This document shows positions 9,191 through 12,454 of a stretch of 57,912 nucleotides of DNA, piece by piece. Where the stretch lies: assembly GCA_045863395.1 (NCBI GenBank), contig BTVJ01000047.1, positions 1 to 57,912 on the forward strand, in the 5' to 3' direction. The notes under the pieces are model-generated. The model saw only the letters and a program-made list of their open reading frames with translations. It was not told where the DNA came from and searched no databases. The first letter of the stretch is position 1, and each line of letters opens with the position of its first letter. The stretch is from Myxococcales bacterium. GTDB lineage: Bacteria; Myxococcota_A; UBA9042; JABWCM01; BTVJ01. A program made the position numbers and the translations under genes.

Positions 9191-9219
9191 AGGCTAGGCG
9201 GTCTGACGCAGCGTGTCAA
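9191..9219 (-). promoter_or_regulatory. Candidate sigma70 promoter for fadIJ
   Basis: Minus strand TTGACA-N17-TAGCCT about 60 nt upstream of the fadI ATG. Confidence 0.55.
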
Positions 9220-9275
9220 TGGGGTCTGGAGCCCGTCTCTTGACCCCATCGCCCGGGTCGTGTGACAACGGGCCC

Positions 9276-10280
9276 ATGACCCGCACGCCCCACGACGCCT
9301 TCTTCAAGGGCGTCTTTGGCAAGCCGGAGCACGCCGTCGCCTGCTTCCAGGCCTATCTGCCGCCGGCGATCCTCGTGCACCTGGACCTCGGGACGGCGCG
9401 GCTCAAGCCTGGCAGCTTCGTCGACGACCGGCTCCGGCAGCGCCACTCCGATCTGCTCTACGAGGTGCAGATGCACGGGCGGCCCGCGCTGCTCTATCTG
9501 CTGTTCGAGCACCAGCGCGCGCCGGACCCGCTGATGCCATACCGCATGCATGGCTATGTCGGGAGAATCTGGGAGCGGTGGCTCGAGGACACGCAGGGGG
9601 CGAGGACGTTGCCGCCCGTCATCTCCCTCGTGCTCTACCACGGTGCCGATGCCTGGAGCGGGCCGGCGCGCCTGTCCGACCTCATGGACGCCTCGCCCGA
9701 GCTGCGCGCGGCCATGCTCCCCCACTCCCCGGAGCTGGCGCCTCTCTTGCTCGACCTCTCGGCGCTCTCCGACGACGAGCTGCGCGGCACTGCGCTCGGG
9801 CGCCTCGCCCTCTACCTCTTCAAGCACATCGACGACCCGGAGCTCATCCAATCGCTGGTCGGCTGGTCCTCCGTCTTCCTGGAGGCCATGGCGAGCTCGG
9901 GGTTGAAGGCGCTCCAGCTCGCGATATCATACGTCCTCAAGGCCGGGCGCGACGTAGAGCACGAGCGCCTCGCCGACACCCTCTTCCCCGAGACGCCCGA
10001 GGCGCGGGAGGTCATCATGAGCACAGCAGACCGGCTCCGGCAGGAGGGCTTCGAGCAGGGGATCCAGCAGGGGATCCAGCAGGGGATCCAGCAAGGCGTC
10101 CAGCGCGGCCAGCAGCGCGGGAAGCTCCACCTCCTCCTTCGCCAGCTCCAGCTCCGCTTCGGGCCACTGCCGGCCGAGGTCAGCGCGCGCGTCGAGGCCG
10201 CCGATGACGAGCTGCTCGACCTCTGGGCAGAGCGCATCCTCACCGCGCCGACCCTGGACGAGGTCCTCGCCGACCGCTGA
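9276..10280 (+). CDS. rpn: Rpn (YhgA-like) PD-(D/E)XK nuclease / putative transposase
   Basis: PHDAFFKGVF, SFVDDRL, HSDLLYEV, YLLFEHQ, LPPVISLVLYHG; C-terminal QEGFEQGIQQG repeats and LLRQLQLRFGPLP (DUF4351-like). Confidence 0.88.
   Translation: MTRTPHDAFFKGVFGKPEHAVACFQAYLPPAILVHLDLGTARLKPGSFVDDRLRQRHSDLLYEVQMHGRPALLYLLFEHQRAPDPLMPYRMHGYVGRIWERWLEDTQGARTLPPVISLVLYHGADAWSGPARLSDLMDASPELRAAMLPHSPELAPLLLDLSALSDDELRGTALGRLALYLFKHIDDPELIQSLVGWSSVFLEAMASSGLKALQLAISYVLKAGRDVEHERLADTLFPETPEAREVIMSTADRLRQEGFEQGIQQGIQQGIQQGVQRGQQRGKLHLLLRQLQLRFGPLPAEVSARVEAADDELLDLWAERILTAPTLDEVLADR
10017..10280 (+). CDS. Probable internally initiated small Rpn C-terminal protein (RpnS-like antitoxin), 87 aa
   Basis: In-frame ATG 10017 (MSTADRLRQEG) directly preceded by GGGAGG at 10006-10011 inside rpn. 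Confidence 0.6.
   Translation: MSTADRLRQEGFEQGIQQGIQQGIQQGVQRGQQRGKLHLLLRQLQLRFGPLPAEVSARVEAADDELLDLWAERILTAPTLDEVLADR
10053..10120 (+). repeat. 12-bp tandem repeat (CAGCAGGGGATC-like) encoding QQGI units
   Basis: Three near-perfect units plus degenerate ones in the rpn 3' region. Confidence 0.85.
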
Positions 10281-10490
10281 GACGGCACGCCGCGGGCGGC
10301 CGGTGGTGGGGGCCCCCCCAGGGCGCGCCCCCGCCAGACGGGGGCTCGCAGCTCTGGCGGGGCGGGCGGTCTTCGTCCCCGCCTCTGCGGGGCGCTGCCT
10401 TGGAGGCGCTGGCCAGGGGCGGGCGCGGCCTGCGCGAGCGTGATCGCGCCGGTTCTGGCCGTCTCCCCTCCGGTGGGAGGGGCCCCCGGG

Positions 10491-10574
10491 CTGGAGAGGC
10501 GGAACCCGAGGCTGTCGGCGCGGTTGCCCGGCGACGTGTTGTTGCGGTTCGCGGCGCGCGCGTTGCCCGCGTTG
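10491..10574 (-). mobile_element. DGR template-repeat (TR)-like copy, non-coding and AAC-rich
   Basis: 84-bp ungapped match to 10795-10878 (70/84 identical). 11 of the 14 differences are at adenines of this copy on the minus strand. Reads AAC GCG GGC AAC GCG CGC GCC GCG AAC CGC AAC AAC ACG TCG CCG GGC AAC CGC. Confidence 0.8.
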
Positions 10575-10628
10575 CGGGGCTGCTGACGCGCCCCCTGGAC
10601 CCCATGCGGGTGGCTCCGTCGAGGGATC

Positions 10629-10712
10629 GCGCCGGCGTCGCGCGCGACGGCGGGGCCGGGCTCCGCTGCGCTCCGAGTTGTCCGGCCTCGCCGTCGGGCG
10701 CGGCGCCGGCGC
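10629..10712. repeat. Long imperfect inverted repeat (31-bp arms) between VR and TR
   Basis: Arm 10629-10659 pairs with 10682-10712 with three non-Watson-Crick positions; 22-nt loop. Confidence 0.75.
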
Positions 10713-10740
10713 TGCGAGGCGGCTCGTGGTGAACCTTCAT

Positions 10741-10771
10741 CAAGGGTTCAAGGGTCCAAGGGTCAAGGGTT
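10741..10771 (-). repeat. Four tandem CCCTTG-core repeats just downstream of the target gene stop
   Basis: Plus strand CAAGGG at 10741, 10749, 10757 and 10764. Confidence 0.8.
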
Positions 10772-10774
10772 CGC

Positions 10775-10793
10775 CTCGCGCCTACGGCGCGAG
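10775..10793 (-). promoter_or_regulatory. DGR target-recognition-like hairpin/cruciform at the 3' end of the VR
   Basis: Minus strand CTCGCGCC-GTA-GGCGCGAG: perfect 8-bp stem with a GNA triloop, overlapping the stop codon. Absent from the TR copy. Confidence 0.7.
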
Positions 10794-11567
10794 CCTGGAG
10801 AGGCGGAACCCGACGCCGGCGCTGCGGCCGCCCGGCGACGCGAAGTTGCGGCTCGCGGCGCGCGCGTGGCCCGCGACGTCGAACCACGAGCCGCCGCGGT
10901 CCACCCGGTACGAGCCCGCCGAAGGCCCTCGCGGGTCAGACGCGCTGCTCTGGCTGTAGTACTTCTCGCCGTACCAGTCGGCGACCCACTCCCACACGTT
11001 CCCGTGCATGTCGTGAAAACCCCAGGCGTTGGGCCGCAGCGTCCCCACCGGGTGGGTCTTATCACCCGAGTTGCCGTCCCACCACGCGTGCTGGCTCAGC
11101 GCGCTCTCGTCGTCCCCGAAGGAGAATTTGCCTGTGCTTCCGGCGCGGCACGCGTACTCTCACTCCGCCTCGGTAGGGAGCCGGTACACGTTGGTGCCCT
11201 CCTTCTCGTTCAGGCGCCGGATGAAGGTCTGCACGTCATCCCACGACACCTGCTCCACCGGGTTCTCTCGGCCCTTGAATTTGCTCGGGTTGCTGCCCAT
11301 CACGGCGACCCACTGCTCCTGGGTGACCTCCGTCTTCCCGAGGTAGAAGGGCCTCGTGATGGTCACCGTGTGGCGCGGAGTCTCGTCAGGATTCGCATCC
11401 TCGAAGTTCGGATCCGCGCCCATCTTGAATGTGCCGGCGGGGACCAGCAGGAACTCCATGCCGATGGAGTTGGTCAGTTTGGCCGGCCTCGACGCCGTCT
11501 GGCTGGCGGCGACCGACGGCAGGAACACGAGCAGCATCGCTGCTCCGAGCCGCTTCAGAGCACCCAT
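10782..11567 (-). pseudogene. Secreted FGE-sulfatase (SUMF1-like, C-type-lectin fold) protein, DGR target, interrupted by one in-frame TGA
   Basis: ORFs 11160..11567 and 10782..11048 are in the same frame. The junction reads RLPTEAE*EYACRAG where the family has W. Motifs [51 protein letters not shown] upstream and a signal peptide. Confidence 0.85.
10795..10878 (-). repeat. DGR variable region (VR) in the last codons of the FGE-sulfatase-fold gene
   Basis: Encodes [27 protein letters not shown]; differs from the TR copy only at codon positions 1-2. Confidence 0.8.
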
Positions 11568-11591: not shown

Positions 11592-11897
11592 CTACTTCGC
11601 CGTGAAGTCCACGCGAGCGTTCCCCGAGGACGGCAGCCGGACCTCGCGGCCCTGGTTGCCGTCGAGGTAGACCGTGATCTTGGCGCCACACGCCGCGCTC
11701 CCGAGATCCATGGAGTACCACCCGTCCGATGGGTACGCCCGCTGGGAGTTCCAGCTCGTCGACACCGTCGTGGTCTTGTTGGATTTGGAGCCGTCCGGCC
11801 AGACCACCTTCCCCTCGATCCCGCAGGCCAGCGCCGCGCCGTGAGTCATGGCCGCCAGGGCCACGGCAGCTCCGAGAACCGTGAGAATTCGCTTCAT
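11592..11897 (-). CDS. Small secreted hypothetical protein (101 aa, two Cys)
   Basis: Signal peptide MKRILTVLGAAVALAAMTHGAALA; GGAG upstream; ends 25 bp before the FGE gene start on the same strand. Confidence 0.7.
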   Translation of the reverse strand: MKRILTVLGAAVALAAMTHGAALACGIEGKVVWPDGSKSNKTTTVSTSWNSQRAYPSDGWYSMDLGSAACGAKITVYLDGNQGREVRLPSSGNARVDFTAK

Positions 11898-12206
11898 GGA
11901 CTTACTCCCGTTGGTGATGTGAGACTCCGCCGCGGCGACTCGACCACGCGCTGGAGTCACGACGGATCGCTTGTCGCAGACGTCGGCGGACCTGTCAACG
12001 GACGAACTGCATGGGTGGGCGCTGACCCGGGCGCCGTGGACGCGGCGTTCGTGTGTGCTCCCCACCGGGGGTCAACGCGTCGCCGAGTGCTTCGGCGGGT
12101 GAACACTGGGACTGCGCCGAGCGCCGACGACACCCAGCCGAGGCCCCGCGTCGTCACGGCCGGCGTGCAAGCGCGTGTCATCACCCCGTGAAGGGAGGCA
12201 ACGCCT

Positions 12207-12454
12207 GTGATCCGCTCGCTTGGCGACCAGCTCTCCGAGGACCTGTACCACGGCCGCACCACGTCCCGGGTCCGCAGGGTGGTCCGAAGCCTCGTGAGAT
12301 CAAGGTCAAGCGGGGGGTCACGTCGCAGACGGCGTGGCTGCTCGCTCAGGCGCTGGGCACGACGCCGCAGTTCTGGATGAACCTCCAGAGCGCCTACGAC
12401 CTCGCCACGGCACGCCCCGACCATCAGGTCGACCCCATCGCTCGGGCTGGTTGA
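12207..12454 (+). pseudogene. Collapsed higB-higA toxin-antitoxin module (5' end of higB joined to 3' half of higA)
   Basis: GGGAGG then GTG 12207 gives VIRSLGDQLSEDLYHGRTTSRVRR (HigB-like start). Another frame gives KRGVTSQTAWLLAQALGTTPQFWMNLQSAYDL (HigA C-terminal half). Confidence 0.7.

What the first reader, a model, noticed from the sequence alone, without database searches (positions are those of the whole stretch)
10491..11567. DGR template/variable repeat pair with adenine-biased divergence but no reverse transcriptase in the window
Seen: the last codons of the FGE-fold gene (10795-10878) have an ungapped 84-bp copy 304 bp downstream (10491-10574). Of 14 differences, 11 fall on adenines of the downstream copy: 11 of its 16 adenines against 3 of 68 other bases. 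All are at codon positions 1-2 (AAC to GTC, CAC, AGC, TTC, GGC). Known: this is the signature of DGR mutagenic retrohoming, and FGE-type C-lectin folds (e.g. Treponema TvpA) are standard DGR targets. Inference: no RT or Avd gene is recognisable in 58 kb, and a convergent rpn gene sits where the RT often follows the TR. This is either a satellite cassette served in trans or a decayed DGR.
Basis: partly seen in the sequence, partly recalled or inferred. Interest (0 to 1): 0.85.

Follow-up and report, generated by a model that had tools for sequence, protein, structure and literature searches.

The report
Broken remnant of a hypermutation cassette
This is a real template-and-target pair of a gene-scrambling retroelement (a DGR), but the target gene has an internal stop codon, the template is a third shorter than in intact relatives and the enzyme genes were likely deleted, so it is likely an ordinary dead relic of a known kind.

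Summary
The repeat pair is real: 14 differences in 84 bp, 11 of 16 template adenines against 3 of 68 other bases (p 7e-8). The downstream copy is a true DGR template repeat (TR), since it keeps the conserved 3' spacer RNA helices.

The cassette looks dead. The TR is 84 bp against 125-130 bp in 6 intact relatives, and its 5' third and leader are gone. In 10 of 13 related TR loci the RT lies upstream of the TR, in none directly after it. So a ~1.9 kb deletion of HRDC-avd-RT between VR and TR is likely (architecture C1); rpn probably did not replace the RT.

The genome holds one complete DGR (contig C33) with a different TR, so service in trans is not excluded but unlikely. One oddity: three adenines conserved in homologous TRs are changed within 8 bases of this TR, as if the template had itself been hit.

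Degenerate DGR loci are published, and this scan noted RT-less cassettes before on other DNA.

The parts
10782..11567 (-). Target gene: stand-alone FGE-type C-lectin-fold protein (261 codons, signal-peptide-like start judged by eye), broken by a nonsense codon
   Evidence: PF03781 on both halves; best PDB match Treponema TvpA 2y3c, E 1e-37; 64% identical to a Prosthecochloris aestuarii DSM 271 plasmid FGE protein, a plasmid listed with a C1 DGR in Wu 2018 Table S1
11160..11162 (-). In-frame TGA at the conserved Trp of the LPTEAEWEY motif
   Evidence: Trp in 9 of 9 homologs fetched; TGG in the genome's paralogous alignments that span the site; kept in 5 of 5 runs that bridge it
10795..10878 (-). 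Variable repeat (VR), the part still matched by the template
10879..10919 (-). Inferred 5' part of the VR whose template is lost; NNC codons sit where homologous TRs have AAC
   Evidence: Codon table against 9 homologous TRs; intact repeats extend 41-46 bp further 5'; no template for it elsewhere in the assembly
10740..10771 (-). Four short CCCTTG-type tandem repeats after the stop codon, typical of target ends in related DGRs
   Evidence: also after the VRs of L020-L023, L036 and L048
10629..10712 (.). Long GC-rich inverted repeat (31-bp arms), candidate target-side hairpin/cruciform
   Evidence: I1; region 10576-10790 folds with z -3.7, 0 of 200 shuffles as stable
10576..10642 (-). REP-like palindromic element shared with C28 and C32, cut short at the deletion junction
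   Evidence: 90-93% identity; it continues in C28 and C32; a similar element precedes HRDC in L022
10575..10576 (.). Inferred deletion junction (REP-like element joined to the inside of the TR)
   Evidence: Bridged by contigs in 6 of 7 runs laid; VR-TR offset 304 against 2133-2218 in 4 intact loci
10491..10574 (-). Template repeat (TR), 3' two thirds only
10512..10519 (-). Adenine-eroded patch inside the TR (codons GCC and AGC where homologs have AAC)
   Evidence: AAC at the 10519 codon in 13 of 13 homologous TRs; AA at the 10513 codon in 12 of 13; the C32 remnant keeps AAC at 10519
10327..10490 (-). DGR RNA 3' spacer: template:primer-like duplex (10489-10482 with 10420-10413), hairpin 10452-10429, invariant CCA (candidate priming A at 10410, by analogy only), 3' hairpin 10363-10327
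   Evidence: 74% identity over 171 nt to the TR plus spacer of an intact DGR; covariation on 8 sequences
9213..10280 (+). Convergent Rpn/YhgA-like gene; neighbour, not a DGR part
   Evidence: PF04754 and TIGR01784

Best explanation
This is the remnant of a diversity-generating retroelement whose target gene has an internal stop codon and whose template is shortened, likely because a deletion removed the HRDC, avd and reverse-transcriptase genes, so it likely no longer mutates anything. Shown: TR/VR pair, conserved 3' spacer, nonsense codon, 84-bp instead of 125-130-bp repeat, and the junction to a cut REP-like element. Inferred: the ancestor had the order target-HRDC-avd-RT-TR (architecture C1). 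Its RT copied the TR RNA with errors at adenines and wrote the cDNA into the last ~42 codons of the lectin-fold gene. One deletion of about 1.8-1.9 kb then took HRDC, avd, RT, the RNA leader and the first ~41 bp of the TR. Without the leader:spacer duplex, cis-primed reverse transcription would fail, by analogy with Bordetella phage BPP-1. The order of deletion and nonsense mutation is not known.
For: (1) The RT is upstream of the TR in 10 of 13 related TR loci and directly downstream in 0 of 13. The others are TR upstream of the target (L020), TR near a contig end without RT (L024) and TR fused to a gene (L035). (2) VR-TR offset is 2133-2218 bp in 4 intact loci against 304 here; repeats are 125-130 bp with 0-1 non-A mismatch in 6 of 6 intact loci against 84 bp and 3 here. 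(3) The VR still shows NNC codons upstream of the present TR start, and no template for them exists in the assembly. (4) The stop is kept in 5 of 5 bridging runs from 5 studies, one of which may be the source sample. (5) The whole VR is covered in 5 runs: one is identical and four share a single change at 10817. The non-A TR/VR mismatches at 10814, 10822 and 10823 persist in all five, though homing from the present TR should erase them; the equivalent zone is rewritten at C33. (6) In BPP-1, deleting the upstream strand abolishes reverse transcription (bioRxiv 10.1101/2023.10.23.563531, passages). (7) The genome carries other DGR debris: a truncated RT-avd fusion on C68, a VR tail on C32, and tagged FGE ends without template on C18 and C32.
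Against: Contigs drop rare variants, so low-level activity is not excluded. The one VR polymorphism (10817) falls on a TR adenine (about 4% chance for at least 1 of 4 SNPs). Up to 3 non-A mismatches also occur in Wu's curated, putatively functional set (rows 101 and 104). The 3' spacer is largely intact. A leader:spacer run beat shuffles (p 0.04 or less) in only 3 of 9 homologs, or 4 of 9 by duplex energy, so the leader helix is not shown throughout the family. No close intact relative of this cassette was found, so the deleted content is inferred from relatives with about 75% TR identity.
Confidence: 0.72

Rival explanations
1. Also a fossil, but of the Treponema order target-TR-HRDC-RT: only about 100 bp (leader and 5' TR) were lost upstream, and the RT block was lost downstream where rpn now lies.
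For: This order exists in 2 of 12 CLec1 HRDC rows shown from Wu 2018 Table S1 and in T. denticola (PMC4891356 passages). The C32 paralogous tail runs on into a G-rich stretch that resembles TR leaders, judged by eye. The closest relative, L020, has its TR detached from the RT, so the order is plastic.
Against: 0 of 13 related TR loci have RT after the TR. No RT, avd or HRDC trace lies after the spacer. It needs two separate losses.
Confidence: 0.12
2. A minimal satellite template served in trans by the intact HRDC-Avd-RT of contig C33, transcribed by read-through from the target operon, with a substitute leader from the REP-like element (10595-10588), and perhaps serving a remote target.
For: C33 has intact avd (NF033474 above cut-off) and an RT with YMDD. 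The spacer helices are kept, and the window and C33 share a C-G closing pair absent from the other 7 of 9 spacers folded. An 8-bp substitute duplex is possible. A third VR-like copy (11 differences from the TR; 3 of the 4 listed are at adenines) stands in contigs of runs X1 and X3 at about genome depth. Trans action at degenerate loci is proposed by Dore et al..
Against: 5.3% of 3000 random genomic 60-mers give the same 8-bp run, the test was post hoc, and its expected pairing in the folded ensemble is 0.0 bp (long-range pairing was also near zero in most intact homologs). The window spacer is far closer to L020 (z about 9) than to C33 (z about 2.4), and those two RTs are only 40% identical. 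The local target is a pseudogene and its non-A mismatches are not erased. The third copy is absent from the assembly and has one non-A difference.
Confidence: 0.1
3. The downstream copy is a fragment of an ordinary paralogous FGE gene, a chance repeat or an assembly artefact.
For: AAC-rich paralogous repeats in this genome can show apparent adenine bias. The spacer alone folds no better than shuffles (z -0.65, 50 of 200 as stable).
Against: The copy runs into a spacer homologous to that of intact DGRs. Two helices pair in 90% of 120 cells, 11 of 15 pairs change on both sides, 0 of 500 shuffles reach this, and slid controls pair in 29-54% (the structure was drawn from these sequences). The junction is bridged in 6 of 7 runs.
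Confidence: 0.02

Closest known systems
DGR architecture C1 (TG-HRDC-AVD-RT-TR) with CLec1 / FGE-sulfatase 'b1' targets, e.g. Prosthecochloris aestuarii DSM 271 plasmid (Wu et al. 2018, PMC5758913, Table S1)
   Same: FGE-type stand-alone target with a C-terminal VR, A-specific TR/VR differences at codon positions 1-2, and the same gene order in relatives and at C33
   Different: HRDC, avd, RT, leader and 5' TR are missing here, and the target carries a nonsense codon
Degenerate DGR loci of Thiohalocapsa PB-PSB1 (Dore et al., bioRxiv 10.1101/2023.09.22.558884 / PMC10907252)
   Same: Several DGR loci in one genome, some complete and some lacking RT or part of the TR; palindromic MITE-like repeats at lost components
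   Different: Most PB-PSB1 degenerate loci examined still vary in nature, some through a matching TR in trans; here no second matching TR exists in the assembly and the VR is almost invariant in run contigs
Treponema denticola DGR / TvpA and its leftover targets (PMC4891356; PDB 2y3c)
   Same: Same fold family (best PDB hit), HRDC-type lineage, leftovers after core loss
   Different: Treponema's order is TG-TR-HRDC-RT, and its leftovers lack both RT and TR, whereas here the 3' TR and spacer survive
Bordetella phage BPP-1 DGR RNA (avd-TR-Sp; Handa et al., bioRxiv 10.1101/2023.10.23.563531)
   Same: A TR:spacer duplex directly after the repeat end, followed by a strand that pairs with an upstream leader in several homologs
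   Different: The leader here comes after the RT rather than from avd, and it is deleted in this copy; no sequence comparison with BPP-1 was made

Membership tests
Diversity-generating retroelement (functional) | TR/VR pair differing mainly at TR adenines | tested here: met
   11 of 16 against 3 of 68, p 7e-8
Diversity-generating retroelement (functional) | VR at the 3' end of a CLec-fold target, changes at codon positions 1-2 | tested here: met
   (sequence match; no structure was predicted)
Diversity-generating retroelement (functional) | Intact target reading frame | tested here: not met
   TGA at 11160-11162, kept in 5 of 5 bridging runs
Diversity-generating retroelement (functional) | Cognate DGR RT in the cassette | tested here: not met
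   0 of 4 RT matches on C47; the intact DGR RT is on C33 with its own TR
Diversity-generating retroelement (functional) | Structured spacer RNA 3' of the TR with a template:primer duplex | tested here: met
   whole-spacer folding z -0.65 does not add support
Diversity-generating retroelement (functional) | Full-length TR and upstream leader for the leader:spacer duplex | tested here: not met
   84 against 125-130 bp; leader replaced by a REP-like element
Diversity-generating retroelement (functional) | Ongoing A-specific VR variation in populations | tested here: inconclusive
   One SNP (10817, at a TR adenine) among 5 runs covering the VR; contigs only, no raw reads
Diversity-generating retroelement (functional) | TR RNA transcribed and reverse transcribed | not testable with these tools
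   One RNA-run contig covers the TR but gives no strand and may be DNA
Architecture C1 DGR (Wu 2018) | Order target-HRDC-avd-RT-TR | tested here: inconclusive
   Only target and TR remain in the window; the full order is seen at L021, L022, L023, L038, L048, L051 and C33, and in part at L026, L046 and L049
Remote target served in trans (Wu 2018 non-adjacent targets) | VR matches the TR of a complete DGR elsewhere at all non-A sites | tested here: not met
   The C33 TR matches only its own VR; the window TR matches only the window VR, plus the C32 tail in part

The most novel reading that the evidence does not exclude
The template itself was hit by its own mutagenesis. Three adenines conserved in 12-13 of 13 homologous TRs are changed within 8 bases (including an adjacent AA pair), with no non-adenine change needed, and the new bases match neither the local VR nor the C32 remnant at that codon. 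This would be a natural record of mutagenized cDNA homing back into the TR, a loss of directionality that erodes a DGR from within.
Probability: 0.2. Interest if true: 0.55.

Novelty: new member of a known kind. Interest (0 to 1): 0.22.

Why it matters
As a relic it matters little: degenerate DGR loci are described. It gives a clean, read-supported example of how a C1-type DGR breaks, and shows that RT-centred searches miss such template remnants. The comparison also maps the RNA scaffold of these RT-then-TR elements onto the BPP-1 model: a covarying duplex starts right where TR/VR homology ends. If the eroded patch came from back-homing into the TR, it would bear on how DGRs keep the template invariant and how they die. 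If the leaderless RNA were used in trans, it would define a minimal guide for DGR-based mutagenesis tools.

Tried and rejected
Rfam: 2 weak matches, both far below gathering scores and taken as chance. Promoter scan: 0 sigma-70-like sites, uninformative at this GC content.

Exact-pattern scans found no close copy: viral contigs 0, metagenome contigs 0, genome contigs 0 then 1, which was the L024 contig again. A metagenome scan with the upstream 102-aa protein gave 1 relative with no FGE or DGR gene beside it, so that gene is not treated as a DGR part.

Protein searches found no near-identical intact allele (best 73% among the 120 listed of 7996 scored) and no third VR gene (0 of 31 candidates, lengths 143-457 only). 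Natural variants of the target in the protein clusters stay unchecked.

My first genome-wide TR scan was swamped by low-complexity hits and was redone with filters. TGA read-through as a genetic code is rejected: paralogs have TGG at the site and neighbouring genes end in TGA.

RNA run X14 has contigs over the TR and part of the gene, without strand or level, so it is not used. The TR SNP at 10499 (X3, X9) is not copied into the VR but may lie outside the transferred zone (PMC3240598 passages), so it is not used either.

The erosion test depends on how it is counted: 3 of 19 ancestral A against 0 of 65 others gives p 0.01 (post hoc; assumes 10510 is a change in the VR), but 4 of 18 conserved A against 3 of 43 conserved other bases gives p 0.11. 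Gene conversion from another VR is an equally good source of the patch: an allele of the post-VR tail differs at 15 sites in 86 bases, three of them shared with the C32-type copy, which points to recombination among these tails. L036, L037 and L050 were VR-only hits and were left out of the TR counts.

Full report
Observation. The pair is as described. 10491-10574 and 10795-10878 align without gaps at offset 304, with 14 differences: 11 at the 16 adenines of the downstream copy and 3 at the 68 other bases (p 7e-8), all at codon positions 1-2. Adenine bias alone is not proof in this 71% GC genome, because Cys-rich coding repeats gave similar scores in a genome-wide scan.

The copy is a template repeat. 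Its 3' flank is 74% identical over 171 nt to the TR and spacer of an intact DGR in a same-class genome. In an alignment of 8 spacers, a duplex that starts right after the end of TR/VR homology and a hairpin pair in 90% of 120 cells, with two-sided changes in 11 of 15 pairs. None of 500 shuffles reaches this, and slid controls pair in 29-54%. The structure was drawn from these same sequences, and the whole spacer does not fold better than shuffles (z -0.65). [quoted passage not shown] The target is an FGE-type C-lectin-fold protein whose best solved relative is TvpA. Its stop codon is followed by four short tandem repeats and a strong inverted repeat.

First, the target has an in-frame TGA at 11160-11162 in place of a Trp found in 9 of 9 homologs fetched. 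Of 7 runs laid, 5 bridge the site and all 5 keep the stop; they come from 5 studies, and one may be the source sample. Second, the TR is truncated. Six of 6 intact relatives have repeats of 125-130 bp with 0-1 non-A mismatch, against 84 bp and 3 here. The gene still shows NNC codons where homologous TRs have AAC upstream of the present TR start, and no template for them exists in the assembly. The TR now abuts a REP-like element that is cut short compared with its copies on C28 and C32. Contigs of 6 of 7 runs bridge this junction, so it is not an assembly error.

Where the RT was. Searches of 41, 107 and 401 genomes and fetches, together with the genome's own C33 element, gave 13 TR loci. The RT is upstream of the TR in 10 and directly after it in none. 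One has the TR upstream of the target, one lies near a contig end without RT, and one is a TR fused to its gene. Three VR-only hits were left out. This is architecture C1 of Wu et al. 2018 (PMC5758913: passages, section 22 and Table S1 rows). The offsets (2133-2218 against 304) imply a loss of about 1.8-1.9 kb. The supplementary figure of architectures was not seen, and bioRxiv supplements were not seen.

Is it served in trans? The assembly (97% complete, 186 contigs) has 4 RT matches and 2 Avd matches. C33 holds a complete element: target, HRDC, avd, RT, an intervening gene, then a TR with 13 of 27 adenines changed and 1 other mismatch. C68 holds a truncated RT fused to an avd end. The C33 TR matches only its own VR. 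The window spacer is much closer to L020 than to C33, and those two RTs share 40% identity. Five runs cover the whole VR: one is identical to the window and four share one change at 10817, a TR-adenine site (about 4% by chance). All five keep the three non-A mismatches, which homing from the present TR should erase. Against my reading: contigs hide rare variants, curated DGRs can carry 3 non-A mismatches, and the window and C33 share a closing C-G pair. An 8-bp substitute leader duplex is possible but arises in 5.3% of random 60-mers. A third VR-like copy stands in contigs of two runs but not in the assembly; that it shares the VR's 3' end is inferred from where the contigs end.

Mechanism. 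Established for DGRs: RT with Avd copies the TR RNA by cis-priming from the spacer, misreads adenines, and the cDNA replaces the VR (passages). Inferred here: this wrote the present VR; a deletion then removed the enzymes, the leader and the 5' TR; the target acquired a stop codon; the order of the last two events is unknown. Confidence 0.72, or about 0.85 for 'fossil' by either route.

The oddity. The codon at 10519 is AAC in 13 of 13 homologous TRs and the codon at 10513 starts with AA in 12 of 13, but three of these adenines are changed in the window TR. This accounts for 2 of the 3 non-A mismatches. The C32 remnant keeps AAC at 10519. Back-homing into the TR, gene conversion from another VR and GC-biased drift all fit; the statistics give p 0.01 or 0.11 depending on the count. 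Six literature searches showed no paper on natural TR self-mutagenesis in their listings. That is weak evidence, because most subscription papers are not held and I read only passages.

Known precedent. Dore et al. describe degenerate loci with missing RT or TR and MITE-like repeats in their place (passages and section 5). PMC4891356 describes leftover targets in Treponema (passages). Earlier notes of this scan report RT-less cassettes in other genomes and the C33 element in this one, and label the host a myxobacterium, which I did not test. Verdict: real, a new member of a known kind, most likely inactive; interest 0.22.

Noticed in passing
G000:C33:45155-52690: Complete DGR (target, HRDC, avd, RT, an opposite-strand gene, then TR) with a clean TR/VR pair; already noted by an earlier agent.
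   Followed up: partly
G000:C68:1-935: DGR RT cut after its first two thirds and fused in frame to an Avd C-terminus, preceded by a spacer-like stretch at the contig end and followed by an Rpn gene.
   Followed up: partly
window 9213-10280 and G000:C68:1026-1640: Both of the genome's 2 PF04754 Rpn/YhgA genes lie directly beside a DGR remnant; whether this link recurs elsewhere was not tested.
   Followed up: partly
G000:C32:69910-70115: The last ~58 bp of a related target gene, with the same repeat tag and REP-like element, fused out of frame to a truncated Ser/Thr kinase gene.
   Followed up: partly
G000:C28:91066-91189 (contig end): A copy of the REP-like element directly follows what looks like the 3' end of a group II intron (recognised from memory, not tested).
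   Followed up: no
window 10676-10761: Runs X3, X4 and X14 hold an allele of the post-VR tail with 15 differences in 86 bases, partly like the C32 copy, and X3 and X4 an 8-base deletion allele; this points to recombination among paralogous tails.
   Followed up: partly
runs X1 (492-nt contig) and X3 (908-nt contig), laid on window 10491-10571: A third VR-like copy with 11 differences from the TR at about genome depth, absent from the assembly.
   Followed up: partly
L035:1-800 (G054:C13): A frameshifted FGE gene that ends in an unmutated TR followed by the spacer: an apparent VR-TR recombination collapse that removed the enzymes.
   Followed up: partly
L022 (G033:C27:1-7607): Tandem duplication of a whole target-HRDC-avd-RT-TR unit with a period of 4701 bp; real or an assembly effect, not checked.
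   Followed up: no
G000:C18:150-395, C32:93-482, C18:10851-11123: Further FGE gene ends with repeat tags and no template found in the assembly; the first two look like variants of one VR.
   Followed up: partly
window 11592-11900 (-): 102-aa secreted-looking protein with no Pfam match, just upstream of the target; one 67% identical relative without DGR context.
   Followed up: partly
window 12200-12454 (+): Degraded HigA-like antitoxin piece (TIGR02607, below cut-off) between the island and uvrD.
   Followed up: no
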